Positions 46,932 to 64,000 are shown, numbered from the stretch's first letter. The stretch is DNA of 64,000 nt from an uncultured Bacteroidales bacterium (GCA_964559985.1 CAZLJX010000003.1:109416-173415); one strand, 5' to 3'. Program-made: numbers and translations. The notes: a model not told the origin generated them from the sequence alone.

Positions 46932-46938
46932 AATCAAA

Positions 46939-47448: not shown

Positions 47449-47453
47449 TTTTG

Positions 47454-47526
47454 ATTCAAATATATTGAATTTTTTTATCCGATATAACTGATAATCAATA
47501 CTTTAACTAGACGTCTATAAGACGTC
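47454..47526. promoter_or_regulatory. Divergent control region with palindromic elements
   Basis: The intergenic region is 87 bp. It holds an inverted repeat ATTCAA-atata-TTGAAT (47454..47470), which contains a minus-strand TATATTTG -7-like box. It also holds two copies of the palindrome GACGTC (47510..47515 and 47521..47526) spaced 11 bp centre to centre, ending 9 nt before the ATG of the large NTPase gene. Confidence 0.35.
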
Positions 47527-47535
47527 CAAACGTAT

Positions 47536-50500
47536 ATGCCACCAAAATCAAATAAACCGATAACATCAACACAAGCAAAGATTTTAATTTTAGAACTCCT
47601 AAAAAATCAGGATCGGGAAATAGCTGATTTATTATATGAATTTCTATCATCACAAAAAGATAAAAACCAAATAAGTAAGCATGCTGCTTTTACAAAAGCA
47701 TATTCAAAACCACAGATTTTTATTGATGATCTACCAAAATTCTCGACTAAAAAAGATCGTAATGAATGGCCAGCATGGCAGAAAATTTTTCATGATTTAA
47801 AACCTGATACCTTCAAATTTGTAGAAAGAAAACCTCCTAATGAGATACGCAAAAAGATAAAGCAATACCTCATAAATCAACAAACAATTAATATCGCTGA
47901 TACGGATTTTTGGTCTCCTTCATTATCTCCCGAACTAAATGTTTTAACCCCAAGGGAGGAAGAAGTTGATAAATTATGCAGCTTTTTATTTAAAAAAAAT
48001 AAAATAACCATCTATTATGGAAACCCCCGTATCGGAAAATCTGAGATAATTAACCAATTGATTAGAAAATTAAAAAAAACTGAAAATAATTTCAGATACC
48101 GGATCCTGGATTGCAAGACGATAGATATAAGTGAAGAAAAACCATTTAGCAAAACCGATGATTTTTTTATGCGCCTGATTGATAATACCAGGTACTTGCT
48201 TATCTTAGAAAATGCTGAAGTACTTAATTTTAATAATTCAAAAATTGGTAGTTTTTTAAGTCGGTTGGCAGACCAAAGCAACAATAAGCAATTGAATTTA
48301 TTGATCATAAGCAGAATTAGAAATGATATTTTAAGTGTTGATAATGAGCATCTTAATATAATTGAATCGGAGCAATTCATCAACCCTGAAATTTTAAATA
48401 ATATTAAACAAATAATAAATAATGATGGTATTTTTATTACATTGATTGAACTTTATGACCATCACCGGCTGCACGTTGGCTTGTTGCAGAAAATAAAGCA
48501 ATCAGAAAATGAGGTTGGCCAATTATTAGAAATGGCTGAGAATAAAGATGTACTTAACCTGCTTAAAGATGATTATGCCGAACAATTCAATACTTTAAAT
48601 GATCCCGAGAAAAAATTCTTCATTACCAGCATTATAACCGGTAAAGTAGTTTTGAAAACAAACAATGATAAAGTCATCGCAAATAGCATTTGTTCAAAGG
48701 GCCTTTTTGACCGGACTTATAATAATGGCTATATCATTCATCCATACATTGCTGAAATAGCTTTTGAATTTTATAAAGAAAAAAAAGAGCTACATAAGAT
48801 TGCTGAACTAATTGTAACAGAATTAAACTTTAACGGGTCTTACTTTGAAAGCTTTATTATCTGTGCTAAATGTGATTTGACTAGTATTGATAACGAAGTA
48901 AAAGATTATATCACGCATTGTACCTTAAAGGAAATCAAGCACTTGAGCTCAGACCCTAACTATAATGTCGTTATTCTAAAAGCTATTATTAAATATAACA
49001 CAGATAAAGCCTTGCTGTTACTACTGGCTGAAAATTATAGATTGGCCGGGAAACTTTCTGAAGCAACTACCTACTTAGATAAAGTCAAAGATGATAAAAC
49101 AATGGCTTTTGGTTACAATACCGAATTGGGTTTTTATTTTAACGCAAAGGCTAATGAATCAAGATCAAACAATGATAAAGAGAAATATATAACATTCGCA
49201 AAAGGAGCTTTCGAAAAAGCAATTTCACTTCCATTAACTGAAAAACTTGCAGGCGAGAATGCCATCAACCGTTATCTTCAGCCTGTAATTGGTTTATATA
49301 ATTTAAATCCAGCCCCGGAAAAACAATTTGAAATCCTTTTTAACGCCTTTTGCGACCTGCATGCATATGACCAGAATTTGCCATTATATTATTTTGAGAA
49401 ATTAACTGCTTTTTTAAATACCCAACATACTCTTAATCAAAACTTTACAAAGTTCACGGAGTGTATCATATTTTATAAAAACAGGAAATTTAAAAAAGCC
49501 TATGCGATAATTCAAGAACTCGATAAAATCTCATTATTCAGTCAACAATTAATTTTTATCAATATTAAAGCCGCAGGCCTTAGAACATCGAACCCAGAAG
49601 AATCAGAAAAACTGCTTAAATCAAGTATTGAAAAAGAGAATAATGCAGAATACAACAGAATGGCATACAGGGAATTATTATTGACTTACTTTGTTAATGG
49701 TATGCTCAATAAGATTGAGTCAGATTCAGCTTTAAAATCAAATCAAGATATAATCGTTGAGGTTGCCCTGGAAGCACCTATTTGGTGGTTTGCAAAAATT
49801 ACTGACAACAATAAAAAAATAAAAGTACTTACATTCTTTAATAATAATTATAAGGAGGAGTTTAAAAATAACGGTTTATCAGACTGGTTATATGCCCAGA
49901 TAATCAAATCTTTTTTAGATGCAGGCATTAATGAAATTGATAAATACCTGCACGAACCTTGTATTCCTGATCCAAAGTCTTTTTCTGACCAAGAAGTTAA
50001 AAAAATAATTCCCATTTTACAATCTAAAATTATCGATAACCCAGATTTAATCTACCCACTGGCTCTTTTTTCATCCACCAATCAACATTATGAACAATTA
50101 CTCAGTTATTGTAATGAAATCTCAACTTTTAATGCAGAAAATTATCATTTTTTAAAATTGCTATGCAAATTAGCTGTAGACTTAAAAGACGAAAAATATA
50201 TTCCCCAACTTTCAAAAATTGATTCTTCAATTGCCAAAAATTTTTCTTATGAATTTTACCATGCAGCATTAATACTTGAAAAAACAGGCAAATATAGCTT
50301 GGCTGATGATTTTTTTAACAAAGCCATACTTCATGCATCTGAACCCGATTTTAATATGTTCTTTCATTATGCCTTCTATCTTTTAAGAAATTCAGATGTA
50401 AGTAACTTTAAAGTTCAAATTAGTGAGGCAAAAAAAAGCTGGATGTCTTCAAGATTACCAACCGACCGCCAGAGTAAACATCATGAAAAATGGTTCAATT

Positions 50501-51951
50501 TGCTCATCAAAAGCTATTTTATTAATTATGGCTTTTTCATTCATAGACCCGATAGAAATTTATTAACTAAATATAAGTCAGAGATCGATAATATTAAAAA
50601 TGAATATGATATTGATGTTAACGTGCTATACTACAGGTGGTTTGCTGACAATGGCAGTGAAAAAGAAAAAAAAGCAAATATTATAAAATTGAACAATTGG
50701 TGTAAGGATAACAAGCAATACTGGCCAACCCAAGGATTGACAGTTCAAAACTCAACAGAAATTATAAACAGTGAATCAGAAAAAGAAAAGTCTACTCATG
50801 AAAATACCTATAATCAAGCAAATAAACATTTCAACGATGGTTCTTATTCAAACGCTTTTGATTTATATTTAAAACTGGCTTTTGAAGGTTATTCACCTGA
50901 CAACAATAGGAAACAGGTGTTTTTTAATAATTTAATTTTTAGCAGTATAAGATCAGGAAAAGAAATTAATATTGCCGATATCCATGAAGAATTGTTGTTA
51001 GATGTGGGAAAAACCTATAAAAGTCTAAAGATAATGGATAAAAACATTGAATGTTTAGAAAAAATACCATCAAACCATAAAGATTATTATTCCTCATCTG
51101 TCATTCTTGCCAGAATATATCTCGAAGAAAACAATCTTATTGAAGCTGGCAAATATTTAAAAATCAATAAACTAAATAAAAAAGATCCGGAAAGTTTAAT
51201 AACCTATGCAGCACTGCTGGATGCTAAAAATAATTTTAAAGAAGCACTTACTTGCATAGACATGGCATTCAACAGCACACACGATTATGGCACATTAAAA
51301 TACAGGAGAAATCTGATTAAACGACATCCTGATGCTTTTCAATCTGATGAAAAGAAAATTACAGAGCTATTATACAAAATTGTACCGTTTATTAAGAATA
51401 AAAATTATAATTTATCCGATACGCAAATCATTGATTTAATAAGCTTAACAAAAAAACATCCTGATCATTTTGTGCTGGCCAGAAAAGCACTTCATATTAT
51501 TAATCATACAAGTAATGGATCAGGGCTAAAAAATTATGACGAAGAATTTGCAGAAATATTAGTCAACCATTACTTCTTTGGGATTTCTGAATTTTATAAA
51601 TTTTCTGTTTATATGAATGCCCCTGATGATGAATATTTTCATTTTTACAGAATGTTGGGTAACTTCTGCAAAGGGTGTAAATACTATCATATAGCCGAGT
51701 ACTTTTACCAGCATGCCTTATCAGTCATTAAAAATGATAAAAATAAAAAAGGTGTGATCAATTTAAACCTTGCCCTTCTGTACTATGAAAAAATTAAAAA
51801 TCACCAATCAGAAGATGAATTGAGGAAATTAAATTTGTTTAAATCAGAGGCAGAAAAATACTTTACAGAAACACGCAATAATGAAAAGCTTGTTCATTGC
51901 AACAATTTAACACTTGATTTAAATAAATTGAATCATGTGAATGATAATTAA
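47536..51951 (+). CDS. Giant STAND/AAA_16-type P-loop NTPase with long TPR-like C-terminal region
   Basis: 1471 aa. LTPREEEVDKLCSFL precedes the Walker A motif GNPRIGKS (48019..48042), and a Walker B-like YLLILENAE lies at 48196..48210. About 1100 aa of helical repeat sequence with TPR-like units follows (e.g. AENYRLAGKLSEATTYLDKV, ILARIYLEENNLIEAGKYLKI, NLALLYYEKIKN). The N-terminal ~140 aa is unassigned. Confidence 0.7.
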   Translation: MPPKSNKPITSTQAKILILELLKNQDREIADLLYEFLSSQKDKNQISKHAAFTKAYSKPQIFIDDLPKFSTKKDRNEWPAWQKIFHDLKPDTFKFVERKPPNEIRKKIKQYLINQQTINIADTDFWSPSLSPELNVLTPREEEVDKLCSFLFKKNKITIYYGNPRIGKSEIINQLIRKLKKTENNFRYRILDCKTIDISEEKPFSKTDDFFMRLIDNTRYLLILENAEVLNFNNSKIGSFLSRLADQSNNKQLNLLIISRIRNDILSVDNEHLNIIESEQFINPEILNNIKQIINNDGIFITLIELYDHHRLHVGLLQKIKQSENEVGQLLEMAENKDVLNLLKDDYAEQFNTLNDPEKKFFITSIITGKVVLKTNNDKVIANSICSKGLFDRTYNNGYIIHPYIAEIAFEFYKEKKELHKIAELIVTELNFNGSYFESFIICAKCDLTSIDNEVKDYITHCTLKEIKHLSSDPNYNVVILKAIIKYNTDKALLLLLAENYRLAGKLSEATTYLDKVKDDKTMAFGYNTELGFYFNAKANESRSNNDKEKYITFAKGAFEKAISLPLTEKLAGENAINRYLQPVIGLYNLNPAPEKQFEILFNAFCDLHAYDQNLPLYYFEKLTAFLNTQHTLNQNFTKFTECIIFYKNRKFKKAYAIIQELDKISLFSQQLIFINIKAAGLRTSNPEESEKLLKSSIEKENNAEYNRMAYRELLLTYFVNGMLNKIESDSALKSNQDIIVEVALEAPIWWFAKITDNNKKIKVLTFFNNNYKEEFKNNGLSDWLYAQIIKSFLDAGINEIDKYLHEPCIPDPKSFSDQEVKKIIPILQSKIIDNPDLIYPLALFSSTNQHYEQLLSYCNEISTFNAENYHFLKLLCKLAVDLKDEKYIPQLSKIDSSIAKNFSYEFYHAALILEKTGKYSLADDFFNKAILHASEPDFNMFFHYAFYLLRNSDVSNFKVQISEAKKSWMSSRLPTDRQSKHHEKWFNLLIKSYFINYGFFIHRPDRNLLTKYKSEIDNIKNEYDIDVNVLYYRWFADNGSEKEKKANIIKLNNWCKDNKQYWPTQGLTVQNSTEIINSESEKEKSTHENTYNQANKHFNDGSYSNAFDLYLKLAFEGYSPDNNRKQVFFNNLIFSSIRSGKEINIADIHEELLLDVGKTYKSLKIMDKNIECLEKIPSNHKDYYSSSVILARIYLEENNLIEAGKYLKINKLNKKDPESLITYAALLDAKNNFKEALTCIDMAFNSTHDYGTLKYRRNLIKRHPDAFQSDEKKITELLYKIVPFIKNKNYNLSDTQIIDLISLTKKHPDHFVLARKALHIINHTSNGSGLKNYDEEFAEILVNHYFFGISEFYKFSVYMNAPDDEYFHFYRMLGNFCKGCKYYHIAEYFYQHALSVIKNDKNKKGVINLNLALLYYEKIKNHQSEDELRKLNLFKSEAEKYFTETRNNEKLVHCNNLTLDLNKLNHVNDN

Positions 51952-53483: not shown

Positions 53484-54706
53484 TGCAGATTGTATATTCC
53501 ATATCGGTTTTATTTTACGGCTTCATCATCAGGCTTGCCTCTTTGTTTTCGGTCAAAGCAAGGCTTTGGGTCAAAGGACGAAAAAACTTTTTTTCACAAT
53601 TCAGTTTTACAAATCCGGAAAAAAGTAAAATCATTTGGTTTCATGCCAGTTCGCTGGGAGAGTTTGAACAGGGAAGACCGGTTATTGAAGCTTATCGCAG
53701 CCTAAACCCGCAACATAAGATTGTGCTCACCTTTTTCAGTCCATCGGGTTACGAAATCCGTAAAAATTATGCAAATGCAGATTATATCTGTTACCTTCCG
53801 CTCGATACTCCACGAAATGCCTGTCGGTTTATTGACAGGATACAACCTTCTGCTGTATTTTTTATTAAATATGATTTCTGGTATCATTATATCAACACCA
53901 TATCAAAAAGAAAAATACCTCTTTACTTAATCTCAGCTGTTTTCAGGGAAAACCAGATATTTTTCAAACCCTGGGGAAGGTGGTACGCATCGTTGCTGCG
54001 TAAATTTGACCATATTTTTGTCCAAAACGAAAATTCAGCCCTTCTGCTTAAAACCCTGCACCTTAACAATGTAACCGTTACAGGAGATACACGCTTTGAC
54101 AGGGTTCATGCCATTGCTATGCAACAAACTGAAAACGAATTGATAAAAAAATTTGCCGGGAATCATTTTGTTATTGTAGGCGGTAGTACCTGGCCTGCTG
54201 ATGAAGCGTTGCTTTTTCAATTTTTGCAAACCACACAGCACCCTGTTAGGCTGATGATTGCCCCTCATGAAATAGACGAAAACCATATTGCTGCCATTGA
54301 AAAGCTTGCCGGAAACAATTGCCGCCGTTACACACAAGGAAACATCGATGACGATACACGCGTTCTGATCATCGACACCATGGGTATGCTGGCTTCACTT
54401 TACAGATATGGCAAAATTGCCTATATTGGAGGAGGTTTCGGAAAAGGGATCCACAATATACTGGAAGCTGCAACTTATGGCCTGCCAGTGGTTTTTGGCC
54501 CGAATTACCATAAATTCAACGAAGCCACCGGACTTATTTCGCTGGGAGGGGCTTTCAGCATAAAAACCCAACATGAACTTATTTCCATTTTGAACAAAAT
54601 GATTGAGCAACCCGCCTTTTTAAAGCATACATCAGATCTTTGTTCTCAATTTGTTAAAAATAACCTGGGAGCTACCCAGCGCATTTTTTCAGTGTTAAAA
54701 GCTTAA
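53483..54706 (+). CDS. waaA: 3-deoxy-D-manno-octulosonic acid (Kdo) transferase
   Basis: Likely start Met18 (MQIVYSISVLFYG, ATG 53483), with the KdtA signature IWFHASSLGEFEQGRPV. Confidence 0.88.
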   Translation: MQIVYSISVLFYGFIIRLASLFSVKARLWVKGRKNFFSQFSFTNPEKSKIIWFHASSLGEFEQGRPVIEAYRSLNPQHKIVLTFFSPSGYEIRKNYANADYICYLPLDTPRNACRFIDRIQPSAVFFIKYDFWYHYINTISKRKIPLYLISAVFRENQIFFKPWGRWYASLLRKFDHIFVQNENSALLLKTLHLNNVTVTGDTRFDRVHAIAMQQTENELIKKFAGNHFVIVGGSTWPADEALLFQFLQTTQHPVRLMIAPHEIDENHIAAIEKLAGNNCRRYTQGNIDDDTRVLIIDTMGMLASLYRYGKIAYIGGGFGKGIHNILEAATYGLPVVFGPNYHKFNEATGLISLGGAFSIKTQHELISILNKMIEQPAFLKHTSDLCSQFVKNNLGATQRIFSVLKA

Positions 54707-54707
54707 T

Positions 54708-54730
54708 AGCTGATTTACAACAGCTTTTTT
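54708..54730 (+). terminator. Small terminator hairpin after waaA
   Basis: AGCTG-atttacaa-CAGCT followed by TTTTT, directly after the stop codon. The stem is only 5 bp. Confidence 0.45.
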
Positions 54731-54957
54731 ATTGATGTCAGAACATATTAACAAATTAAAACTCTCTATTCCAATATATTGCAGAGGTATGTAAACTTTA
54801 TGTTAATAATTGAATTAGTATTTGTTTTAATCTTCGTATTAAATTCGCAATACATCTTTTCTTAAATCAACTTTTTAATATTCATTTGATTAGTAGACTA
54901 ATCAGTAAAAATAAATGGACAATGGTAACGGATCAAATGATCGCTAAGAACGAAAAA

Positions 54958-57480
54958 ATGGCAACCACATTCAATTTTGACGAAGTACTGAGCCAATCGC
55001 TGAAATATTTTAATGGCGACGAACTGGCTGCCACAGTTTGGGCAAACAAATATGCATTAAAAGATTCTTTTGGCAATATCTACGAACGCACTCCCGACGA
55101 TATGCATCATCGCATAGCCCACGAAATAAACCGCATTGAAAAGCTTTATCCCAATCCGATGAGTGAAGCGGAAGTTTTTGAGCTGTTGCGCAATTTTAAA
55201 TACATTGTTCCGCAGGGAAGCCCTATGGCCGGAATTGGTAATAATTTCCAGGTCGCTTCGTTGTCAAACTGCTTTGTAATAGGGCATAAAAACCCTGCCG
55301 ATTCGTATGGCGGCATTATGAAGATTGACCAGGAACAGGTTCAGCTTATGAAACGCCGCGGAGGTGTTGGTCACGACCTTTCACACATCAGGCCTACCGG
55401 TAGCCCTGTAAAAAACAGTGCCCTGACATCTACCGGTATTGTACCGTTTATGGAACGGTACTCCAATTCAACCCGCGAAGTAGCACAGGATGGCCGGCGT
55501 GGCGCTTTAATGCTCAGCCTTTCCATTAAACATCCCGATGCCGAACGCTTTATCGATGCAAAAACCGAACAGGGAAAAGTTACAGGAGCCAATGTTTCGG
55601 TAAAAATTGACGATGAATTTATGCGCTGTGTTGTTGAAAACAGGCCTTATACGCAAAAATATCCTATTAATTCTGATAATCCGCTGGTCGAAACCGTTAT
55701 TGATGCCCGTAAACTTTGGAAAAAAATAGTGCACAACGCATGGCAGAGTGCTGAGCCTGGGATCCTTTTCTGGGACACCATTATCAGGGAATCTGTACCG
55801 GATTGTTATGCCGACCTGGGCTATCGTACAGTTTCAACCAATCCGTGTGGTGAAATTCCATTATGCCCTTACGACAGTTGCAGGCTGCTGGCCATTAATC
55901 TATACAGCTATGTTGAAAATCCGTTTACTGCACAGGCACATTTCAATTTTGAACTTTTTAAAAACCATGTAGCAAAAGCTGTCAGAATGATGGACGACAT
56001 CATTGACCTTGAACTTGAAAAAGTAGATGCCATCCTTGAAAAAATACGTCAGGATCCGGAAGATAGTGAAATTAAACGCATTGAACAAAAACTCTGGGAA
56101 AATATCCGCCTTAAAGCTGAAGAAGGAAGGCGCACAGGCATTGGTATCACAGCCGAAGGGGATATGCTTGCTGCCCTGGGGCTTCGTTACGGATCGGAAG
56201 ATGCCATTGATTTTTCGGTTGAAGTACATAAAACCCTTGCTATCAGTGCATACAAAGCATCGGCTATGCTGGCACGCGAACGCGGCCCGTTTGCCATTTA
56301 CGATTTTGACCGTGAAAAAACCAACCCGTTTGTTAACCGCCTCATTGAAGAAGATCCTGAGCTGAAAGAAATATTACAGCGCAACGGTCGCCGTAACATT
56401 GCATTACTTACCATTGCCCCAACCGGAACAACCAGTTTGATGACCCAGACCACCTCGGGGATTGAGCCTGTTTTTATGCCGGTTTATAAACGCCGCCGCA
56501 AAGTTAACCCCAATGATAAAAATGTAAAAGTTACATTTGTCGACGATATTGGCGATTCGTGGGAAGAGTTTAATGTTTTTCATCCAAAATTCCTCACCTG
56601 GCTTGAGGTAAATAACTTCAATATCGAAGAAGTGAAAAACTATAACGATGATGAGTTATCAAAAATGCTTGAAAAATCGCCTTATTATAAATCATCCTCC
56701 AACGATATTGATTGGGTAAGCAAAGTACATATGCAGGGACGGATTCAGAAATGGGTTGACCATTCCATCAGTGTTACTGTGAACCTGCCCACAGAAGTAA
56801 CCGAAGACCTGGTAGGCGACATTTATATTGAAGCATGGAAGAGCGGATGCAAAGGCGTAACCGTTTATCGTGAAGGATCACGCTCAGGGGTTTTATTGTC
56901 GAATAAAAAAGAACAAAAAACACCAGCCCGTGATGAACAGCTTAAACGCCCCAAAGAGCTTGAAGCCGATGTGGTAAGATTTATGAACAATAATGAAAAA
57001 TGGGTCGCCTTTGTCGGTTTGCTCAACAATACACCTTATGAAATTTTCACAGGGATGGAAGATGATGAAGTATTACCAATTCCAAAAGCTGTTCATAAAG
57101 GAAAAATTATAAAGAGCAAGGATGAAGAAGGCAACACCCGTTACGACTTTCAGTTTATCAATAAATTCGGATATAAAACAACCATTGAAGGACTTTCACA
57201 TAAATTCAACAAGGAATTCTGGAACTATGCCAAACTAATTTCCGGGGTTCTACGCTACGGAATGCCCATTGACCGGGTATTGAATTTAGTTGCTTCACTG
57301 CAGCTCGACAGCGAATCGATCAATACATGGAAAAACGGCGTTGGAAGGGCTTTACGGAAATATATTCCCGACGGTACCCAGGCCGACGGACAGGAATGCC
57401 CTTCATGCGGATCGACCAAACTTGTGTATCAGGAAGGTTGTCTCATTTGTAAAAGTTGTGGAACTTCAAAATGCGGATAG
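54958..57480 (+). CDS. nrdJ: Class II (adenosylcobalamin-dependent) ribonucleotide reductase
   Basis: The track ORF begins at TTG 54886. The likely start is ATG 54958 (MATTFNFDEVLSQSLKYFNGDELAATVWANKYALKD), with 54922 and 54937 as alternatives. Catalytic blocks SNPCGEIPL and TIAPTGTTS, plus a C-terminal Zn ribbon CPSCGS..CLICKSCG. Confidence 0.9.
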   Translation: MATTFNFDEVLSQSLKYFNGDELAATVWANKYALKDSFGNIYERTPDDMHHRIAHEINRIEKLYPNPMSEAEVFELLRNFKYIVPQGSPMAGIGNNFQVASLSNCFVIGHKNPADSYGGIMKIDQEQVQLMKRRGGVGHDLSHIRPTGSPVKNSALTSTGIVPFMERYSNSTREVAQDGRRGALMLSLSIKHPDAERFIDAKTEQGKVTGANVSVKIDDEFMRCVVENRPYTQKYPINSDNPLVETVIDARKLWKKIVHNAWQSAEPGILFWDTIIRESVPDCYADLGYRTVSTNPCGEIPLCPYDSCRLLAINLYSYVENPFTAQAHFNFELFKNHVAKAVRMMDDIIDLELEKVDAILEKIRQDPEDSEIKRIEQKLWENIRLKAEEGRRTGIGITAEGDMLAALGLRYGSEDAIDFSVEVHKTLAISAYKASAMLARERGPFAIYDFDREKTNPFVNRLIEEDPELKEILQRNGRRNIALLTIAPTGTTSLMTQTTSGIEPVFMPVYKRRRKVNPNDKNVKVTFVDDIGDSWEEFNVFHPKFLTWLEVNNFNIEEVKNYNDDELSKMLEKSPYYKSSSNDIDWVSKVHMQGRIQKWVDHSISVTVNLPTEVTEDLVGDIYIEAWKSGCKGVTVYREGSRSGVLLSNKKEQKTPARDEQLKRPKELEADVVRFMNNNEKWVAFVGLLNNTPYEIFTGMEDDEVLPIPKAVHKGKIIKSKDEEGNTRYDFQFINKFGYKTTIEGLSHKFNKEFWNYAKLISGVLRYGMPIDRVLNLVASLQLDSESINTWKNGVGRALRKYIPDGTQADGQECPSCGSTKLVYQEGCLICKSCGTSKCG

Positions 57481-57493
57481 TATCATTATTGAA

Positions 57494-57527
57494 GAAAAAG
57501 CCGGATTCAAATATCCGGCTTTTTTTA
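57494..57527. terminator. Bidirectional rho-independent terminator between nrdJ and the sensor array
   Basis: AAAAAGCCGGAT-tcaaat-ATCCGGCTTTTTTT, with a 9-bp stem flanked by an A-run and a T-run. Confidence 0.85.
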
Positions 57528-57530
57528 TTG

Positions 57531-59927
57531 TTAAATTTTCTTTTGTGTTTCAAGGACTTTGATTTCTTCCTCAAGCGCCCTGATTTGCTTTTCGAGCAAT
57601 TTATCTTCGGTAATGTCAATGACAATTAAAATAATCCGTTTTAAATCATCATATTCCATCACCGGGTTATAATGTTCTTCGAGCCATAATTCACGGGTAT
57701 GAAACTGCATATGCCTTAAACATTTCTGTTGCATGCCTTCATGCAGCGAATCGAAAATGCTTTTAAGCTGGTTTTGTTCCTCTTCTGTTTTGACAATAAC
57801 CTCATCGATCAGTTTACCAATCATCATTTCAGGAGTGCTGCCGTATGACTGAGCAAGTTTTTCGTTAATTTTTATCACAGTACCGTCAATATCGAGCTCA
57901 GCAACAAGGGTTATGACATTAATTGCAGCAAGAATACTACGCAATTCTGCTTCGCGTTTGGCAGTTTCTTCCTGCGTTGCCTGCATCTCTTCAAGGTTCT
58001 GGCGCATTTCCTCTTCCTGCTGGGCAAGTTCATCTTCAAGTTTGCGCGATTGACTTAACAACCTCTCAGTCCGTTGATTCACTTTTATACTTGCTATGGT
58101 TGATGCAATACTTTCGCCCAGTTTTTCAATAAATTCAATCTGGTAAGGTTCAAAAGGAGTAAACGAGACGATTTCAAGTACACCGTAGATATAATCGTTG
58201 AGATTGAGCGGGACTATCAGCACCGATCGTGGATTCTCAGCAATACTGAGACCCTGAACAATATACACATAATCAGGTGGAGCCTGCGGAATATAGATGG
58301 TGATTTTTTCATCAGCAGCTCTTCCAATCAATCCTTCACCGGTATAAACCCGTGCATCGAAAAGTTTGCGTCGTCCATAAGCTACTACCGATGCCAGGTC
58401 GAAAAAGACTTCCTCCGGATTATCATCATTAACAATGAATATTCCACACTGAGCGGTTTTTGCATAATCGGCCAGGTTTTCAGCTACGCTGTGTGCCAGT
58501 GCTTCAAGATTATCGCTGTGTTCGCGCAATATTTCACCAAATTTGGCAAGGCCCTGGGTGACCCAGTTACGTTTATCATCTTCAATTTTTTTCTCCTGTT
58601 CAAGCATCTGAGCGTTGATAAGATTGTTACGCATTTCAATCAACGATTGGCCTAAAATATCTTCATCGCCAAGTGAAACAAATTCTGCTTTCAGGTCACC
58701 CTCTCCTATTTTGTTGGCAAATTCAATGGTTTTATTCAGATTGATGATTAATTCATTAATGGCAAGATTCAATGATCCTATCTCATCGCTTGTCTGTATT
58801 TTATTAATTTTTGAAACATCAATTTCTCCCTGTGACATTTCCTGCAACAGGCGGGTAGTCCGAACAACGGGAGTTACAATACTTTTTGATATAAAGGTAA
58901 TAATGAGTGTCAAGATGATTAAACCAGCCATTCCTACAAATATGTTGTAATAAAAATTGCGGTTTGAAGTTTCAATCAGGGTTCTTTGTGGCACTATCAC
59001 GGCAAACGACCAGGGTGTTGGCGCATTTCCAACAAATACCGGTGCAAACGACATATAGCAATTTTGTTTCAGGAAGGAATCATATGCGTAGAGGGAAAAC
59101 TTTTTACCGTTTTTAATATTTTCAGATATCTTATTTTTATCTATATCGCCCGTAAGAAATTCTGTAATGTTTTTTTCAATCAGTTTAGTATCGGCATGTG
59201 CCACAAAAACCCCGTTGTTGGCAACAAGATAAGCATAACCGGTGCCAAAAGGTTTTATGCCATCAATCATGTTTTTGAAGGTCTGCAAGGGGACATCAAC
59301 ACCAATTACACCCTTAAAGTTGCCATTTTTTATAATGGGTTCTATAATGTTTGTTTGCAATACTTTATCGTTGGTATCGTTGGTGTAGGAATAATAAAAC
59401 GGATTGAGTAAAGTCTCGGACCGGGTATTTTTAGGTATGGTATAGTATTCACCCTGGAAAAGCACTGTGGAAGTGTTTTCCTGCAATAACACCTGGTTTC
59501 CCTTTTTATAATAGGTTGGAGAGAAATTACCTTTGAATGTGTTTCCCGGGGTATTGATCAGCATTGCGTCAAAGTTGTCGATAGTGTTAGGTTCCCATAT
59601 TGTCCAGATAGATATAAAATCATTATTCTGCATTAATACCTTGATGATGGTTTCGCTGAAAAGAACTCTCCGTTTTTTTTCAGGGACAAGGTCATAATTT
59701 TCAAAAATCTGTTTCAGATTACGTGCAGTTACCAGGTATTGCTCAAGATTGGTTTTTACCTGTCTGGCATTTTGCATAGCGTTATTATCGGCCATGGTGA
59801 TGGTATTACGCAGTGTTTGTCTTTTCAGGCTGAGGCTGATATATCCGATTGATATTCCGTATATCACCAGCGAGGTGGCCAGGATAAAAAGCATCATGCG
59901 TGTATTGAGTTTGAGTCGTAGCTTCAT
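57531..59927 (-). CDS. Membrane sensor protein: Cache-like periplasmic domain, TM, HAMP (x2), GAF, coiled coil, PAS; no output domain
   Basis: 798 aa with two TM helices flanking a ~290-aa extracytoplasmic region. HAMP (VVRTTRLLQEMSQGEIDV..SDEIGSLNLAINELI), GAF (GLIGRAADEKITIYIP..VLIVPLNLNDYIYGVLEIVSF), an acidic coiled coil (QQEEEMRQNLEEMQATQEE) and PAS. The protein ends right after the PAS domain. Confidence 0.75.
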   Translation of the reverse strand: MKLRLKLNTRMMLFILATSLVIYGISIGYISLSLKRQTLRNTITMADNNAMQNARQVKTNLEQYLVTARNLKQIFENYDLVPEKKRRVLFSETIIKVLMQNNDFISIWTIWEPNTIDNFDAMLINTPGNTFKGNFSPTYYKKGNQVLLQENTSTVLFQGEYYTIPKNTRSETLLNPFYYSYTNDTNDKVLQTNIIEPIIKNGNFKGVIGVDVPLQTFKNMIDGIKPFGTGYAYLVANNGVFVAHADTKLIEKNITEFLTGDIDKNKISENIKNGKKFSLYAYDSFLKQNCYMSFAPVFVGNAPTPWSFAVIVPQRTLIETSNRNFYYNIFVGMAGLIILTLIITFISKSIVTPVVRTTRLLQEMSQGEIDVSKINKIQTSDEIGSLNLAINELIINLNKTIEFANKIGEGDLKAEFVSLGDEDILGQSLIEMRNNLINAQMLEQEKKIEDDKRNWVTQGLAKFGEILREHSDNLEALAHSVAENLADYAKTAQCGIFIVNDDNPEEVFFDLASVVAYGRRKLFDARVYTGEGLIGRAADEKITIYIPQAPPDYVYIVQGLSIAENPRSVLIVPLNLNDYIYGVLEIVSFTPFEPYQIEFIEKLGESIASTIASIKVNQRTERLLSQSRKLEDELAQQEEEMRQNLEEMQATQEETAKREAELRSILAAINVITLVAELDIDGTVIKINEKLAQSYGSTPEMMIGKLIDEVIVKTEEEQNQLKSIFDSLHEGMQQKCLRHMQFHTRELWLEEHYNPVMEYDDLKRIILIVIDITEDKLLEKQIRALEEEIKVLETQKKI

Positions 59928-59937
59928 GGCATTTGGT

Positions 59938-62676
59938 TTATAACAATTCGCTGATGTTTTTAATCAGTTGACGTAATTCTTTTTCCACTTCTTTCCATAA
60001 TTCCTGGATTTCGGTCATTAATTCGGGAATTTCGGTCAGATTGGTTTTTTCAGTAGCATATTTTTCAATGTTTTTCGAATTATTAAGCATGGTTTTCAGA
60101 CCAAGATAGGTCATTTTTGTTTTCAGGGTGCTGGCTTTTGTACGCAACATTTCCCAGTTTTTATCCTTGTAGTACTTATCTATTTCTTCAATTTCTTCGG
60201 GAATAATGGTAATATAAAAGTTAAGGATATTATGAATTTTCTGGGCATCGCCTTTGTATACTTTTACCAGGTAATTCAGATCAATAAACTGAAGATTAAA
60301 CTCCTCGGCTACAAGACGTTCTGCAACTTTGCGTGTTTCAACTCCTTCGGTGTCGGTCAGGCGTTTCGACAGGATATCCCGTTTTTCGATCAGGCTTTTG
60401 ATTTTTTGCCTTTTATTCCGCGATTCGGTAATGTCAAAAGCAAGGCACAATACTTTTACCGGGTTACCGGTAGTGTCAAAAATGGGTGAATATGTTTCAT
60501 CGAGCCATATTTCACGGGTGGCGGTCCTGAAATACTGAATGTTGTTTTTTGTGCGTCCCTGTTTAAGTTCCATCCAGAATTCCTTCAGTTTTTCCTGTTT
60601 TTTCTCATCGGCAATGCGAAAACCAAAAGATTTGCCAATCATCTGGTCTTTATTCACTTTATATATTTTCAGCATGGCATCGTTAACATCAAGTATTTTG
60701 CCATCAATGTCATATTCAATTACCAGTAATGTATTCCTGAGTGCTTCAATGACTCCCCTCATTTCGTTTTCCCGGTTATTGGCTTCTTCCTGGGTGGCCT
60801 GCAGCTCTTCCATATTCTGGCGTATTTCCTCTTCCCGCTGAGCCAGTTCATCGGCCTGAATTTTCGATTGCTCCAGTAATGACGAAGTTTTTACATTGAA
60901 TTTTACCCGCGAAAGGGTAGCGGCAATGCTTACAGCTACTTTTTCAACAAATTTAACCTGGTAGTCTTCAAGCACCTTTATCGATTCAATTTCGAGAATA
61001 CCAACCATGACTTCGTTTAAGATCAACGGAACGATTAAAATGCATAAAGGCTTTGATTTTCCAAGTCCTGAACGGATATCAATATAATGTTCCGGAACCT
61101 CGGTAATGAAAATAGTATCTTTTTCAAGGTAACAGGTTCCCACCAGTGATTCGCCAGGTGCATAAGTCCGTTGTTCATATTTTTCTTTCCCAAAACCGAT
61201 ATACGCTTTCAATTCAATAAAAATATCTTCCGGGTCAACCTCATTAACCATGTAAATACCACCTTCAGAAGCATCGAGATAATGAATTAAAAAGCGGATG
61301 ATATCATAGGTTAGTTTGTTCAGATTATCGTTATTCTGCCTTAAAATTTTCCCGAATTCGGCAAGGCCTACCGAAGTCCAGGTAAGCTGTTCTTCAAGTT
61401 TTTTTCTTGCATCGGCTTCTTCTTTTGACCTTTTAAGGCTGTCGCGCATTTTTATAATAGCCCTGCCAAGGCTATCTTTTTCGCTCAGCTGATGATAATG
61501 TGCATCAAAATTCCCTTTTCCGAATTCACTGGCAAATGCTGCGGTAGTTTGAATGCTTTTTATCAGTGTATCAAGTGAATGCAACATGTCAGCGATTTCG
61601 TCTTTCGATTTCATTGCAACGATTTCAACATCTCTGAAATTCCCTGATGAGAGTTTCCTGATGATTTGAATGGTTCTTTTCAGCGGAATAGTAATGGTAA
61701 GCGTAATAATATATACTACAATGAATAATAGCAACAAACCAAAATATCCTATAATCCAGGCTTTTTCAAGATGGCTGGAAGTCTGGCCGGCAACAGAAGC
61801 AATATTGATTACCACAGCACAACTCCATGAGCAATCGTTTACGATTTCAACAGGGGCAAGGGAAATATAAAGACTGTCATTTCCGTTTTTATTATTCAGA
61901 TTAAAAGAAAATTTCTGCCCCGATTTTATCTTTTCTGTAACAGGTACTGCATTTTTTGAGAACAAATCGAGGCTTTGAAGGCTATTGCCAGTTTTCTCAT
62001 GCTGCGGATGGGTAACAATATCGCCCTGGGCAGATAATAAAATAACATACCCTTTTCCAAAAGGATGTAACGAATCAGTCATCCTTTGAAAACATTCAAG
62101 ATCAATACCGGCTCCAATATATCCGGCAATTTCATTATGCTTTTTCAAAGGGACAATGACATAGGAAACAAAATTCTCATCAATTTTTTTTGACGTATAG
62201 GTTTTAAAAACAGGCCTGGTAATCCATGCATCTTTTCCGGACGGAAATTTCAGATCTTCGTCAAACTGAAAAATAGTGCTTTTAGGTCTTACAAATTGCT
62301 GTACTGGCAGCAAAACTGAATCTGAACCATTAACCGATGGGTTCCAGCCAAGGCATGTGGCAACGAAGTCTTTGTTGTTCAGCAACATATTATTAAGTAA
62401 CCCACGATTAAAATCTGTATTTATCTGGTTTTCTATTGTGTTATCCTGTATTATAACATAGGAATGGGTATACAGTGAGTTAAAATACTGATTAAAAACA
62501 GACCGGAAATCTTTGGCATATTGTTGGGCATAGGCATCGGCCACAAACCTGGAGTTGGTTACAGCCGAATTTTTAAAATGGTTTATAATCAGGTTTATAG
62601 CAAGGAAATAAATCAAAGCTGAAACTCCCAGGATATACATTAGCATTTTAAAAAGTAAGCTGAATCTGATCTTCAT
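59938..62676 (-). CDS. Paralogous membrane sensor (Cache-HAMP-GAF-coiled coil-PAS) with extra C-terminal HPt-like domain
   Basis: 912 aa with the same architecture as its neighbours. It has an added C-terminus, IDLNYLVKVYKGDAQKIHNILNFY..WEMLRTKASTLKTKMTYLGLKTM, that resembles an HPt four-helix bundle. Confidence 0.75.
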   Translation of the reverse strand: MKIRFSLLFKMLMYILGVSALIYFLAINLIINHFKNSAVTNSRFVADAYAQQYAKDFRSVFNQYFNSLYTHSYVIIQDNTIENQINTDFNRGLLNNMLLNNKDFVATCLGWNPSVNGSDSVLLPVQQFVRPKSTIFQFDEDLKFPSGKDAWITRPVFKTYTSKKIDENFVSYVIVPLKKHNEIAGYIGAGIDLECFQRMTDSLHPFGKGYVILLSAQGDIVTHPQHEKTGNSLQSLDLFSKNAVPVTEKIKSGQKFSFNLNNKNGNDSLYISLAPVEIVNDCSWSCAVVINIASVAGQTSSHLEKAWIIGYFGLLLLFIVVYIITLTITIPLKRTIQIIRKLSSGNFRDVEIVAMKSKDEIADMLHSLDTLIKSIQTTAAFASEFGKGNFDAHYHQLSEKDSLGRAIIKMRDSLKRSKEEADARKKLEEQLTWTSVGLAEFGKILRQNNDNLNKLTYDIIRFLIHYLDASEGGIYMVNEVDPEDIFIELKAYIGFGKEKYEQRTYAPGESLVGTCYLEKDTIFITEVPEHYIDIRSGLGKSKPLCILIVPLILNEVMVGILEIESIKVLEDYQVKFVEKVAVSIAATLSRVKFNVKTSSLLEQSKIQADELAQREEEIRQNMEELQATQEEANNRENEMRGVIEALRNTLLVIEYDIDGKILDVNDAMLKIYKVNKDQMIGKSFGFRIADEKKQEKLKEFWMELKQGRTKNNIQYFRTATREIWLDETYSPIFDTTGNPVKVLCLAFDITESRNKRQKIKSLIEKRDILSKRLTDTEGVETRKVAERLVAEEFNLQFIDLNYLVKVYKGDAQKIHNILNFYITIIPEEIEEIDKYYKDKNWEMLRTKASTLKTKMTYLGLKTMLNNSKNIEKYATEKTNLTEIPELMTEIQELWKEVEKELRQLIKNISELL

Positions 62677-62685
62677 TTTCCTGTA

Positions 62686-64000
62686 TTATTTACCGGTTTT
62701 TTTATGTAGCATATTTTCAGTTATATCAACAGCAATATTGATTACTTTATAGGGATTTCCGTTAGCATCGGGAATAGGAGCATAAATTTCTGACAACCAT
62801 TTTTCTTCGCCTTTCAGGGTCAGTATTTTTTGAATTTTCTTTTGGGTATTGTTATTCCTGAGTTCGTTCCAGAACATTTCTTTTTCATGTTTATCTTCCA
62901 TATTATCAGAAAATGACCCCTGGTAACGTCCTACCATTTGTTCACGTGTGCAACCCAATAGGTCTAAGAAATTGCTGTTTATTTCAATAATTTTTCCGTT
63001 CAGGTCAAATTCGGCAACAAGCGAAATATCATAAATAGAATCAATAATGGCTTTCATTTCCGATTCACGTTTGGCTGTTTCTTCCTGTGTGGCATGCATT
63101 TCTTCCATGGTTTGCCTCATTTCTTCTTCCTGCTGGGCAAGCATATCGGCCTGCTCGCGTGATTGTTGCAGAAGTGCAGCTGTTTTTTCATTCATTTTGA
63201 CACTTGAAATGGTAGAGGCAATAATTTCACCGATACGTTCACAAAATTCAATTTTATATTTGTCGAGTTGATGAAACGAAGCCAGCTCCATCACGCCCAG
63301 CACTTCATCATTCAGTTTCAGGGGTACAAGTAATAAGCAGGTAGGATTAGCCGTTCCGAGTCCTGAAGTTATTTTAACATAATTTTTCGGAACATCAATC
63401 ATATAAATGGTTTCTTTTTCAAAAGCACACCTTCCTATCATCCCTTCGCCCTGGATAACTTGCTTTTTATCGGTACGGATACGGCCGTATGCTATGGCTG
63501 CTGTCATTTCAAAGTAAATGTTTTCAGGATCGTTGTCGTTCAGAATGTACACCGAACCGATAGGGATATCGATATAGGAAATCAGGTTTTTGACAATTTC
63601 GAACGATAACTGTTTTATATCATTGGTATACGAACGCAATATCTCACCCATCCGGGTTATTCCGGTGGTTATCCACTTTTGTTTCTCTTCTTCTGATTTG
63701 CGTTTTTCTTCTTCTTCGCGGGCATTGATGAGGCTTTTTTGCATCTCGATAAGCGATTTGCCGATACTATCCTCTTCGCTTAGTAATTCAAAATGGGCAT
63801 TCAGATTTCCTTTTCCGATTTGTGTGGCAAATTGTGCAGTACGGCCCAGGCTGTCCATTAAAGTATTGACCGATGTTGCCATCTGTCCAAGTTCATCCTG
63901 CGATTGAATGCCTATATGCGAAGTCGTATCAATTTTTCCCAATGCAAGATTTTTTAGTACTTCTATGGTATGAATAAGCGGGTTGGTGATATTACGGGCA
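62686..64000 (-). CDS. Third paralogous sensor (HAMP-GAF-coiled coil-PAS), N-terminus beyond the right window edge
   Basis: The track starts it at TTG 63942, but the frame stays open to nt 64000 (..ARNITNPLIHTIEVLKNLALGKIDTTSHIGIQSQDELGQMATSVNTL is a HAMP domain). The gene is therefore truncated by the window. Confidence 0.8.
   Translation of the reverse strand, partial: ARNITNPLIHTIEVLKNLALGKIDTTSHIGIQSQDELGQMATSVNTLMDSLGRTAQFATQIGKGNLNAHFELLSEEDSIGKSLIEMQKSLINAREEEEKRKSEEEKQKWITTGITRMGEILRSYTNDIKQLSFEIVKNLISYIDIPIGSVYILNDNDPENIYFEMTAAIAYGRIRTDKKQVIQGEGMIGRCAFEKETIYMIDVPKNYVKITSGLGTANPTCLLLVPLKLNDEVLGVMELASFHQLDKYKIEFCERIGEIIASTISSVKMNEKTAALLQQSREQADMLAQQEEEMRQTMEEMHATQEETAKRESEMKAIIDSIYDISLVAEFDLNGKIIEINSNFLDLLGCTREQMVGRYQGSFSDNMEDKHEKEMFWNELRNNNTQKKIQKILTLKGEEKWLSEIYAPIPDANGNPYKVINIAVDITENMLHKKTGK

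What the first reader, a model, noticed from the sequence alone, without database searches (positions are those of the whole stretch)
57531..64000. Tandem triplication of Cache-HAMP-GAF-PAS membrane sensors with no enzymatic output domain
Seen: three co-directional paralogues are separated by only 10 and 9 nt. The two complete copies have an extracytoplasmic Cache-like region between two TM helices, which the edge-truncated third copy cannot show. All three have HAMP, GAF, a conserved acidic coiled coil (QQEEEMRQNLEEMQATQEE, QREEEIRQNMEELQATQEE and QQEEEMRQTMEEMHATQEE) and one PAS domain. Copies 1 and 3 terminate right after the PAS domain. By eye I find no HisKA/HATPase, GGDEF/EAL, MCP-signalling, STAS or phosphatase motif. 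Established: these input modules normally feed a kinase, cyclase or methyl-accepting output. Inference: these are output-less sensors that must signal through protein-protein contacts, possibly as hetero-oligomers or with a partner encoded beyond the window edge.
Basis: partly seen in the sequence, partly recalled or inferred. Interest (0 to 1): 0.55.

Follow-up and report, generated by a model that had tools for sequence, protein, structure and literature searches.

The report
Sensor gene array with histidine-less HPt
A conserved operon of four (not three) related membrane sensor proteins in a Bacteroidales-type bacterium encodes no signalling enzyme, but one member ends in a phosphotransfer (HPt) domain that has lost its phosphorylatable histidine, which suggests the set acts on a phosphorelay by docking rather than by catalysis.

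Summary
Three minus-strand genes (57531-59927, 59938-62676, 62686 to the window edge) lie 10 and 9 nt apart. Each encodes TM-dCache-TM-HAMP-GAF-acidic coiled coil-PAS, and none has a kinase, cyclase, MCP, STAS or phosphatase domain.

Three corrections:
- **Four genes, not three.** A contig 98% identical to the window continues past the edge. It shows a fourth paralogue, then a 230-nt intergenic region and unrelated genes, with no kinase or regulator.
- **Old paralogues, not a recent triplication.** The copies are 30-39% identical and have positional orthologues in arrays of 3 to at least 6 genes in other Bacteroidales genomes. They are under purifying selection (dN/dS 0-0.07).
- **Copy 2 has an overlooked C-terminal domain.** It has an HPt fold, and its closest histidine-bearing relatives are the HPt domains of hybrid kinase-receiver-HPt proteins. 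The phospho-accepting histidine is Ser849 here and N/G/T/F/I/K in orthologues, which form one exclusive clade.

Best reading: a co-expressed, non-catalytic, multi-input receptor set. Its one recognisable signalling handle is a pseudo-HPt that probably docks a receiver domain encoded elsewhere, as the plant protein AHP6 is proposed to do. The partner and the mechanism are inferred, not shown. This is a new variant built from known domains and is moderately interesting.

The parts
57531..59927 (-). Copy 1 (group C, last gene of the array), 798 aa: TM, dCache, TM, HAMP, GAF, acidic coiled coil, PAS. It ends 17 aa after the PAS domain.
   Evidence: ORF. Pfam. Identical protein P0001. dN/dS 0.074 against L053.
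59046..59651 (-). Copy 1 periplasmic dCache_1 / MCP-like PDC region (residues 93-294)
   Evidence: dCache_1 E=1e-14 (55.1 bits, above the 45-bit cut-off) and MCP-like_PDC_1 E=3e-6. Flanked by hydrophobic segments at residues 12-30 and 329-347.
58734..58895 (-). Copy 1 HAMP (residues 345-398)
   Evidence: HAMP E=9e-6, 26.4 bits
58095..58511 (-). Copy 1 GAF (residues 473-611)
   Evidence: GAF_2 E=5e-11
57966..58022 (-). Copy 1 acidic coiled-coil motif QQEEEMRQNLEEMQATQEE (residues 636-654)
   Evidence: This is the most conserved segment among paralogues (56-65% identity).
57585..57947 (-). Copy 1 C-terminal PAS (residues 661-781)
   Evidence: PAS_9 E=8e-8. TIGR00229 E=5e-11.
59938..62676 (-). 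Copy 2 (group B), 912 aa: the same architecture plus a C-terminal histidine-less HPt-fold domain
   Evidence: dN/dS 0.054.
60784..60840 (-). Copy 2 acidic coiled-coil motif QREEEIRQNMEELQATQEE (residues 613-631)
60403..60765 (-). Copy 2 PAS (residues 638-758)
   Evidence: PAS_9 E=6.5e-13
59941..60354 (-). Copy 2 C-terminal extension (residues 775-912): a helical linker followed by a pseudo-HPt helical bundle
   Evidence: AF2 model pLDDT 90.4, pTM 0.82. The top 27 Foldseek PDB hits are all HPt domains or proteins (3myf_B TM 0.85, HptB 7c1i TM 0.88). Profile against PDB sequences: 3myf E=0.013. Profile against 1.84 billion proteins: 3045 hits, and 129 of the 151 domains in the top 150 hits carry His.
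60130..60132 (-). Codon AGC for Ser849 of copy 2, the position that aligns with the phospho-accepting His of HPt domains
   Evidence: Alignment to 3myf 'IHKLHGAS'. Column analysis of 151 domains. Coordinates.
62686..64000 (-). Copy 3 (group A), the C-terminal 437 residues: HAMP, GAF, acidic coiled coil (QQEEEMRQTMEEMHATQEE, 63079-63135), PAS. The full protein is 777 aa with dCache and two TM segments in the near-identical contig L053 (7658-9991).
   Evidence: There are 19 synonymous and 0 non-synonymous differences against L053.
54886..57480 (+). Convergent ribonucleotide-reductase large-subunit gene that bounds the 3' end of the array. It is not part of the system.
   Evidence: Ribonuc_red_lgC

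Best explanation
The window holds the last three genes of a four-gene operon. Each gene encodes a paralogous, non-catalytic transmembrane receptor.

**Shown**
- Each protein has its own divergent periplasmic dCache sensor and its own divergent cytoplasmic PAS domain.
- All share a conserved HAMP-GAF-acidic coiled-coil core.
- One protein (copy 2, group B) ends in a domain derived from the HPt of hybrid histidine kinases that has lost the phospho-accepting histidine.

**Inferred**
- The proteins are made together and act as one multi-input receptor set. This resembles mixed chemoreceptor arrays, or RsbR paralogues in a stressosome.
- The output is binding, not catalysis. The pseudo-HPt keeps the only activity an HPt has besides carrying phosphate, which is docking a receiver (REC) domain.
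- Through that docking it sequesters, competes for or scaffolds a receiver of a His-Asp phosphorelay encoded elsewhere in the genome, in a ligand-dependent way.
- The other paralogues feed in through hetero-oligomers or parallel contacts. The candidate surface is an invariant stripe of glutamates at the outward-facing b/c heptad positions of the coiled coil.
For: **Architecture and lack of output**
- Domain calls for all copies, including the fourth.
- The top 50 relatives (E<=4e-74) carry no output domain.

**Operon**
- The gaps are 12, 9 and 10 nt.
- A 230-nt region lies upstream of the first gene, and a convergent RNR gene lies downstream.

**The genes are functional**
- dN/dS is 0.074, 0.054 and 0 for the three copies.

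**An old, ordered set**
- Paralogues are 30-39% identical.
- The NJ tree groups the proteins by array position across four genomes.
- The pair 'group B with extension, then group C' ends the arrays in the window/L053, L049, L050, L047 and L056.

**Different inputs, common core**
- dCache: 27% identity among the window's paralogues.
- PAS: 24-33%.
- Acidic coiled coil: 56-65%.

**Pseudo-HPt**
- Fold.
- Sequence homology to true HPt domains: 129 of the 151 domains in the top 150 hits carry His.
- 10 of 10 tested long His-bearing hits are sensor-PAS-HisKA-HATPase-REC-Hpt proteins.
- 9 of 10 tested long His-less hits are dCache-HAMP-GAF-PAS proteins.
- The 19 His-less domains form one exclusive clade.
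- The flanking LK..Y.G motif is retained while the His position drifts among S/N/G/T/I/K/F.

**Precedent**
- AHP6, a plant HPt without the histidine, is proposed to interfere with a phosphorelay by competition (PMC4076795).
Against: - No partner has been identified. No receiver, kinase or regulator lies next to any of the arrays examined, and the rest of the genome could not be read.
- Docking of a receiver by the pseudo-HPt is inferred from what HPt domains do. It was not tested.
- Arrays or single genes without a group-B member exist (L006 with two copies, L028 and L055 with one). The family can therefore work without the pseudo-HPt.
- The acidic coiled coil is not specific to arrays. It also occurs in relatives that have SpoIIE or kinase outputs, so its conservation may reflect an intramolecular role downstream of GAF rather than a shared partner or hetero-oligomerisation.
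- The heptad assignment was done by hand.
Confidence: 0.4

Rival explanations
1. The four proteins are independent sensors. Each signals on its own through its C-terminal PAS domain, by PAS-PAS or PAS-kinase contacts with a different cytoplasmic partner. Clustering reflects only co-regulation, and the pseudo-HPt is a structural cap or a relic without a docking role.
For: PAS domains are as divergent between paralogues (24-33%) as the periplasmic sensors are, as expected if each has its own ligand or partner. Single-copy members exist (L028, L055). Other family members carry a hemerythrin or extra PAS domains at the same C-terminal position, so that end of the protein tolerates accessory sensor domains.
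Against: The gene order A-B-C is conserved in four of the genomes and the B-C pair in a fifth, despite 30-39% paralogue identity. The pseudo-HPt has stayed recognisably conserved within one clade after losing His, with 31-42% identity across orthologues and a confident fold. Copy 2 as a whole has dN/dS 0.054. A relic would have decayed.
Confidence: 0.2
2. They are chemoreceptor-like receptors in which a GAF-acidic coiled coil-PAS module replaces the MCP signalling domain. The invariant glutamate-rich coiled coil is the contact or adaptation (methylation/deamidation) site for a Che-like or gliding-motility control system.
For: The N-terminal half (dCache plus HAMP) is 25-33% identical to true MCPs carrying PF00015 (P0055, P0057, P0062 and others), and JGI names some members 'methyl-accepting chemotaxis protein'. 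Several paralogues with divergent sensors and one highly conserved cytoplasmic helix mirror MCP families. 'LEEMQAT' fits the half-consensus EExxA[ST] known from MCP methylation sites (my own knowledge). A true MCP lies next to a two-copy array in L006.
Against: There is no MCPsignal match even at E<=1. The full methylation consensus [ASTG][ASTG]xx[EQ][EQ]xx[ASTG][ASTG] is not met when the motif is read directly. No cheA, cheW, cheR or cheB gene lies in any neighbourhood seen. The same coiled coil occurs in kinase- and SpoIIE-linked proteins.
Confidence: 0.12
3. The function is centred on GAF. The proteins are membrane-anchored receptors or sinks for a small molecule or nucleotide bound by the GAF domain, and the minimal functional unit is sensor-GAF-acidic coiled coil. 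PAS and pseudo-HPt are accessory.
For: Complete proteins end right after the acidic coiled coil (P0104 530 aa, P0100 570 aa, P0080 1134 aa; L008 7382-10783, a Reg_prop/Y_Y_Y-GAF protein). GAF plus coiled coil is the part shared by all architectures in the family.
Against: No ligand can be inferred. GAF is only about 40% identical between paralogues. This reading does not explain why a receiver-docking fold was recruited and kept.
Confidence: 0.1
4. This is a conventional multi-kinase operon whose cognate transmitter or regulator lies just beyond the window edge, or the genes are decaying remnants of kinases.
For: This is only the general expectation that Cache-HAMP-GAF-PAS inputs feed an enzyme. 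More distant relatives do have SpoIIE or HisKA/HATPase outputs (P0051, P0053, P0060, P0064).
Against: L053 is 98.1% identical over 10,102 nt and shows only a fourth paralogue and unrelated genes upstream. The fully bounded six-gene array in L050 has no kinase or regulator on either side, and none lies on the flanks visible for L049, L047 and L056. dN/dS is 0-0.07 and the ORFs are intact across deep divergence.
Confidence: 0.03

Closest known systems
C-terminal HPt domains of unorthodox hybrid histidine kinases (ArcB/BarA-type architecture; here sensor-PAS-HisKA-HATPase-REC-Hpt proteins)
   Same: The extension of copy 2 has the HPt fold: 3myf TM 0.85, HptB 7c1i TM 0.88, and matches to ArcB and BarA HPt. 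It is the sequence sister of these domains: the profile hits His-bearing HPt domains at E from 1e-30 to 1e-12, and 10 of 10 tested sit in kinase-REC-Hpt proteins. It shares the W...A-x-x-LK...Y-x-G motif.
   Different: The phospho-accepting His is absent (Ser849 here; N/G/T/I/K/F in orthologues). There is no HisKA, HATPase or REC in the same protein or operon. The domain follows a PAS domain instead of a receiver.
AHP6, the pseudo-HPt of Arabidopsis cytokinin signalling
   Same: It is an HPt-family protein without the conserved histidine. AHP6 is proposed to interfere with a phosphorelay by competing with true HPt proteins (PMC4076795). This is the mechanistic model adopted here.
   Different: It is eukaryotic, soluble and a stand-alone protein, and its loss of His was independent. 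The domain here is fused to a ligand-sensing transmembrane receptor. In the paper library searched, 'pseudo-HPt' occurs almost only in plant two-component-system papers, and no bacterial example was among the 20 listed.
Methyl-accepting chemotaxis proteins with dCache sensors
   Same: The membrane topology matches, and the dCache plus HAMP N-terminal half is 25-33% identical to true MCPs. Both show several paralogues with divergent sensors and a conserved cytoplasmic helical element.
   Different: There is no MCP signalling domain, and no che genes lie nearby. GAF, coiled coil and PAS take its place.
Cache/GAF/PAS sensors with SpoIIE (PP2C) or kinase outputs (for example P0064, P0065, P0077)
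   Same: They share the same GAF-acidic coiled-coil module, with a nearly identical EELRQNAEEMRATQEE motif and about 30-35% identity over roughly half the protein.
   Different: Those proteins continue into a phosphatase or a kinase. The proteins here stop after PAS or after PAS plus pseudo-HPt.
Signalling helix (S-helix) of Anantharaman, Balaji and Aravind 2006
   Same: It is a parallel coiled-coil segment of about 40 residues between two signalling domains, with acidic residues at the b/c positions (PMC1592074; heptad assignment here done by hand).
   Different: The defining 'ERT' signature at positions c-d-e of the central heptad is absent. Here those positions read E-M-R or E-M-Q.
RsbR paralogues of the Bacillus stressosome (comparison of logic only, from my own knowledge)
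   Same: Several co-expressed paralogues have variable sensor domains and a conserved core. They have no enzymatic output and signal by holding or releasing a partner.
   Different: The domains are unrelated (globin-like N-terminal domain plus STAS), the complex is soluble and the partner is known. No STAS domain is present here.

Membership tests
HPt domain (Pfam PF01627, histidine phosphotransfer) | Four-helix-bundle HPt fold | tested here: met
   AF2 model pLDDT 90.4. The top 27 Foldseek PDB hits are all HPt domains or proteins, with TM up to 0.88 and rmsd 1.8 A.
HPt domain (Pfam PF01627, histidine phosphotransfer) | Sequence homology to established HPt domains | tested here: met
   Pfam Hpt is weak for the window protein alone (E=0.082) and better for an orthologue (0.0012). 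The 7-sequence profile hits PDB 3myf at E=0.013. Against 1.84 billion proteins it gives 3045 hits, and the His-bearing ones tested all carry Pfam Hpt.
HPt domain (Pfam PF01627, histidine phosphotransfer) | Conserved phospho-accepting histidine in the helix motif H-x-x-K-G | tested here: not met
   The aligned residue is Ser849 in the window, and N, G, F, S, T, I or K in the 19-member clade. The only His in the extension (in KIHNIL) is not conserved.
Pseudo-HPt (AHP6 type) | HPt homologue that lacks the histidine | tested here: met
Pseudo-HPt (AHP6 type) | Binds phosphorelay partners and inhibits phosphotransfer by competition | not testable with these tools
   This needs binding and phosphotransfer assays. 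The only support is retention of the motif around the lost His.
Sensor histidine kinase | HisKA/DHp with a phospho-His, plus an HATPase_c catalytic domain | tested here: not met
   No HisKA or HATPase_c family at E<=1 in any copy or in the fourth copy. There is no conserved His in the coiled coil.
Methyl-accepting chemotaxis protein | MCP signalling domain (PF00015) with a conserved hairpin tip | tested here: not met
   No MCPsignal match at E<=1. Only the dCache plus HAMP half resembles MCPs.
Methyl-accepting chemotaxis protein | Methylation-site consensus [ASTG][ASTG]xx[EQ][EQ]xx[ASTG][ASTG] | tested here: not met
   Read directly from the motif: only the half-site EExxAT is present, and the upstream small residues are R-Q.
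dCache_1 extracellular sensor | Match to PF02743 above the gathering score, located between two TM segments | tested here: met
   Copy 1 scores 55.1 bits (cut-off 45). The fourth copy scores 53.3 bits. Copy 2 (38.8) and full-length copy 3 (44.3) fall below the cut-off but reach E<=1e-9.
S-helix | 'ERT' signature in the central heptad | tested here: not met
   The motif reads EEEMRQN[LM]EEM. The definition comes from PMC1592074.
PP2C/SpoIIE partner-switching sensors | SpoIIE phosphatase domain (PF07228) | tested here: not met
   Absent from all four copies. Present only in distant relatives.
Di-HAMP (poly-HAMP) array | A second HAMP unit after the first | tested here: inconclusive
   By eye the 401-465 linker looks HAMP-like (GxGDL...D.LG). 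Pfam gives no HAMP hit on the isolated segments, only HAMP_N3 at E=0.06 for copy 2.

The most novel reading that the evidence does not exclude
This is a bacterial, ligand-gated pseudo-HPt. A membrane complex of three to six different Cache receptors integrates several extracellular and cytoplasmic inputs. It controls a His-Asp phosphorelay purely by reversible docking or sequestration of a receiver domain on a histidine-less HPt. That would be a prokaryotic counterpart of AHP6 fused directly to receptors, and a third way, besides kinase and phosphatase control, of feeding signals into two-component pathways.
Probability: 0.25. Interest if true: 0.75.

Novelty: new variant of a known kind. Interest (0 to 1): 0.55.

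Why it matters
Sensor proteins built from Cache, HAMP, GAF and PAS domains are normally read as inputs to an enzyme. Here a whole conserved operon of them has none, so the usual rules for annotating signal transduction say nothing about what they do.

The histidine-less HPt in one conserved member gives a concrete, testable handle: look for the receiver domain it binds. If confirmed, it would show that bacteria, like plants with AHP6, regulate phosphorelays with dead phosphotransfer domains. It would also show that such a domain can be placed under direct control of a transmembrane receptor.

There is a practical point too. These genes are currently named only 'PAS domain S-box protein', 'GAF domain-containing protein' or, wrongly, 'methyl-accepting chemotaxis protein'.

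Tried and rejected
- **The window's own longer record.** The NCBI contig of 201,328 nt could not be retrieved. Exact look-ups returned only Logan contigs, two of which break inside copy 3. The upstream region came instead from a 98%-identical contig found through P0084.
- **Collection scans with copy 3.** The genome and metagenome scans found no identical contig, only relatives at 54% identity or less.
- **The 160-aa extension as a plain query.** Searching the word-indexed protein database returned nothing, not even the protein itself, and wasted one search. The full HMMER scan later found 3045 relatives.
- **Second HAMP unit.** Not supported by Pfam.
- **Riboswitch or other known RNA upstream of the operon.** No Rfam match at E<=1.
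- **Terminator or promoter signal at the 3' end.** The scan found nothing above the shuffled expectation.
- **Acidic coiled coil as an MCP methylation site or an S-helix.** Neither defining consensus is met.
- **Literature on the motif.** Searches for the motif strings found no paper. Searches for 'no output domain' phrases found nothing on proteins of this kind.
- **Decaying pseudogenes.** Rejected on dN/dS and conservation.
- **A signalling partner elsewhere in the window.** The 20 of 48 long ORFs scanned are housekeeping genes (rpoB, rplJ, rplA, nusG, tuf, BamA-like, RNase HII, IspD and others) or lack any Pfam hit. The ORFs between about 18 and 42 kb were not scanned.

Full report
**What is in the window**

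Three long ORFs lie head to tail on the minus strand:
- 57531-59927 (798 aa, copy 1)
- 59938-62676 (912 aa, copy 2)
- 62686 to the window end (437 codons visible, copy 3, N-terminus cut off)

The gaps are 10 and 9 nt. Transcription runs right to left, so the window edge is the upstream side. A convergent ribonucleotide-reductase gene (54886-57480) closes the downstream side.

Pfam finds dCache_1/MCP-like PDC, HAMP, GAF and one PAS domain in each complete copy, and HAMP, GAF and PAS in the truncated one. No kinase, ATPase, GGDEF, EAL, MCP-signalling, STAS, SpoIIE or cyclase family appears even at E<=1. NCBIfam adds only the generic PAS S-box model and partial matches to sensor parts of larger proteins.

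**What lies beyond the edge**

The window's own 201-kb record could not be fetched. A Logan contig, L053, is 98.1% identical to window 53899-64000 over 10,102 nt without gaps and continues upstream. It shows the following:
- Copy 3 is a full 777-aa protein with dCache and two TM segments.
- A fourth paralogue of 780 aa with the same architecture sits 12 nt upstream.
- A 230-nt intergenic region comes next, with no Rfam match.
- Beyond it lie a 4HBT thioesterase, an unknown 218-aa protein, a DUF1573 protein, an MscS channel and a helicase.

The array is therefore a four-gene operon. The 'partner beyond the edge' does not exist in this lineage.

**Age and conservation**

The four paralogues are only 30-39% identical to each other. 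Between the window and L053, dN/dS is 0.074 for copy 1 and 0.054 for copy 2. Copy 3 has 19 synonymous and 0 non-synonymous changes. The genes are under purifying selection and are not remnants.

Related arrays occur in other Bacteroidales metagenome-assembled genomes:

| Locus | Copies | Flanking genes |
|---|---|---|
| L050 (same array as L003) | 6 | a class-I tRNA synthetase gene upstream; SelU and AIM24 downstream |
| L047 (1.39-Mb contig) | at least 6 | SelU and AIM24 downstream |
| L056 (Salinivirga-like) | at least 5 | GcvH downstream |
| L049 | 3 | the same synthetase gene upstream |
| L006 | 2 | HydF divergent upstream; DUF6016 and an MCP downstream |
| L028, L055 | 1 each | unrelated genes |

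A neighbour-joining tree groups the proteins by array position, not by genome. It gives group A (copy 3), group B (copy 2, always 910-936 aa) and group C (copy 1), in that order, in the four genomes included in the tree. Groups D and E lie further upstream where present. L056 was not in the tree, but its last two genes show the same pattern (a 927-aa protein with the extension, then a 794-aa protein). No kinase, receiver or transcription factor flanks any array. This is an old, ordered gene set, not a recent triplication.

**The family**

The 50 best database relatives of copy 1 (E<=4e-74) have the same domains and no output. Their only names are 'PAS domain S-box protein', 'GAF domain-containing protein', 'cache domain-containing protein' or, from JGI, 'methyl-accepting chemotaxis protein'. 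Variants add a C-terminal hemerythrin or extra PAS domains. Only more distant relatives carry SpoIIE or HisKA/HATPase. True MCPs match only the dCache plus HAMP half.

Among paralogues of one genome, the periplasmic sensor (27% identity in the window's set) and the PAS domain (24-33%) are the most divergent parts. The acidic coiled coil is the most conserved (56-65%), with EEEMRQ and TQE nearly invariant.

With a heptad assignment made by hand (L/M at positions a and d), the six invariant glutamates fall on the outward-facing b and c positions. These are not needed for dimerisation, so their conservation suggests a binding surface. This is inference.

The same motif is also present in relatives with SpoIIE or kinase outputs. 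Some complete proteins end right after it. It is therefore a hallmark of a wider 'GAF plus acidic coiled coil' module and not evidence for hetero-oligomers as such. It lacks the ERT signature that defines the S-helix and does not meet the full MCP methylation consensus.

**The overlooked domain**

Copy 2 continues for about 150 residues after PAS, and all group-B orthologues do the same. The evidence on this extension is as follows.

- **Weak single-sequence signal.** Pfam Hpt scores E=0.082 for the window protein and 0.0012 for the best orthologue.
- **Profile against solved structures.** A 7-sequence profile ranks the Shewanella HPt domain 3myf first among PDB sequences (E=0.013).
- **Fold.** The AlphaFold model is confident (pLDDT 90.4, pTM 0.82). 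Its 27 best structural matches in the PDB are all HPt domains or proteins: 3myf, HptB, ArcB, BarA, plant AHPs and Ypd1, with TM up to 0.88.
- **Full protein scan.** The profile finds 3045 relatives among 1.84 billion representative proteins. Among the 151 aligned domains in the top 150 hits, 129 have His at the phospho-site column and 22 do not.
- **His-bearing relatives.** All 10 long ones tested are sensor-PAS-HisKA-HATPase-REC-Hpt hybrid kinases.
- **His-less relatives.** 9 of 10 long ones tested are dCache-HAMP-GAF-PAS proteins.
- **One clade.** The 19 His-less domains of this kind form one exclusive clade (NJ without bootstrap).

In the window the position is Ser849 (codon 60130-60132). 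In orthologues it is N, G, F, T, I or K, so it is not a conserved alternative phospho-acceptor. The flanking motif (W...LK..Y.G) is kept. The domain is a pseudo-HPt that arose once from the HPt of hybrid kinases and has been maintained without its histidine.

**How it most likely works**

Shown:
- There are four co-directional genes with 9-12-nt spacers.
- The products are non-catalytic receptors with distinct sensors.
- One of them has a histidine-less HPt.

Inferred:
- The set is co-expressed.
- It signals by binding.
- The pseudo-HPt keeps the only other known activity of HPt domains, which is docking receiver domains. By sequestering, competing for or scaffolding a receiver, it would couple the receptor set to a phosphorelay encoded elsewhere.

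The closest functional precedent is plant AHP6 (PMC4076795). In bacteria, ChpA is reported to have Ser and Thr variants of Hpt domains (PMC10896506), but in the library searched the term pseudo-HPt occurs almost only in plant two-component-system papers. I put this mechanism at about 0.4.

Rival readings:
- Independent PAS-mediated sensors (0.2)
- A chemoreceptor-like system using the acidic helix (0.12)
- A GAF-centred receptor (0.1)
- A conventional kinase operon or decaying genes (0.03, contradicted by the data)

**Verdict**

There are no enzymatic outputs and signalling must be by contacts. But there are four genes rather than three, the array is old rather than a recent triplication, no partner lies at the edge, and a cryptic dead phosphotransfer domain is present.
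- All the parts are known domains. The combination has not been described: a conserved operon of output-less Cache receptors, one of which ends in a pseudo-HPt. It is a new variant of a known kind, and it offers a clear experiment, which is to find the receiver that the pseudo-HPt binds.

Noticed in passing
window 43651-51951: G+C drops to 0.29-0.36 here, against about 0.40 elsewhere. All six long ORFs in this stretch have no Pfam hit at E<=1e-4, including a 1471-aa ORF at 47536-51951 (+). The 1471-aa protein is a singleton cluster among about 15 billion proteins. This may be an acquired island of unknown function.
   Followed up: partly
window 10978-11859 (-): A tyrosine recombinase (Phage_integrase plus an N-terminal SAM-like domain) lies directly beside the tuf-nusG-rplA-rplJ-rpoB block. 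It could be XerC/D-like or the integrase of an element.
   Followed up: no
L054 2959-9001: Two adjacent hybrid kinase-REC-HPt genes (923 and 1077 aa) carry the closest histidine-bearing relatives of the pseudo-HPt. Kinases of this type are candidates for the pathway the pseudo-HPt acts on.
   Followed up: partly
L008 7382-10783; proteins P0080, P0100, P0104: These complete proteins end right after the GAF-acidic coiled-coil module. One is a Reg_prop/Y_Y_Y-GAF protein and others are HAMP-GAF proteins. The acidic coiled coil can therefore be the C-terminal element of a sensor.
   Followed up: partly
L006 10034-12051: In one Bacteroidales MAG, a two-copy array lies next to a DUF6016 gene and a true MCP (sCache_2-HAMP-MCPsignal). 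The first copy of that array has a Cache_3-Cache_2 sensor instead of dCache_1.
   Followed up: no
L001/L002 position 1 (about window 63140): Two independent Logan assemblies break inside copy 3, 465 nt upstream of copy 2. The paralogous repeats may be fragmenting short-read assemblies, so arrays of this kind may be under-counted in metagenomes.
   Followed up: no
protein P0129 (140 aa); protein P0231 (740 aa): Two other histidine-less HPt homologues lie outside the main clade. P0129 is a stand-alone 140-aa protein with Phe at the His position. P0231 is a PAS-HisKA-HATPase-REC-HPt kinase with Gly there.
   Followed up: no
proteins P0018, P0020, P0022, P0046, P0102: These family members carry a C-terminal hemerythrin domain at the position where group B has the pseudo-HPt. 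The C-terminus of the family is a site where accessory domains are swapped.
   Followed up: no
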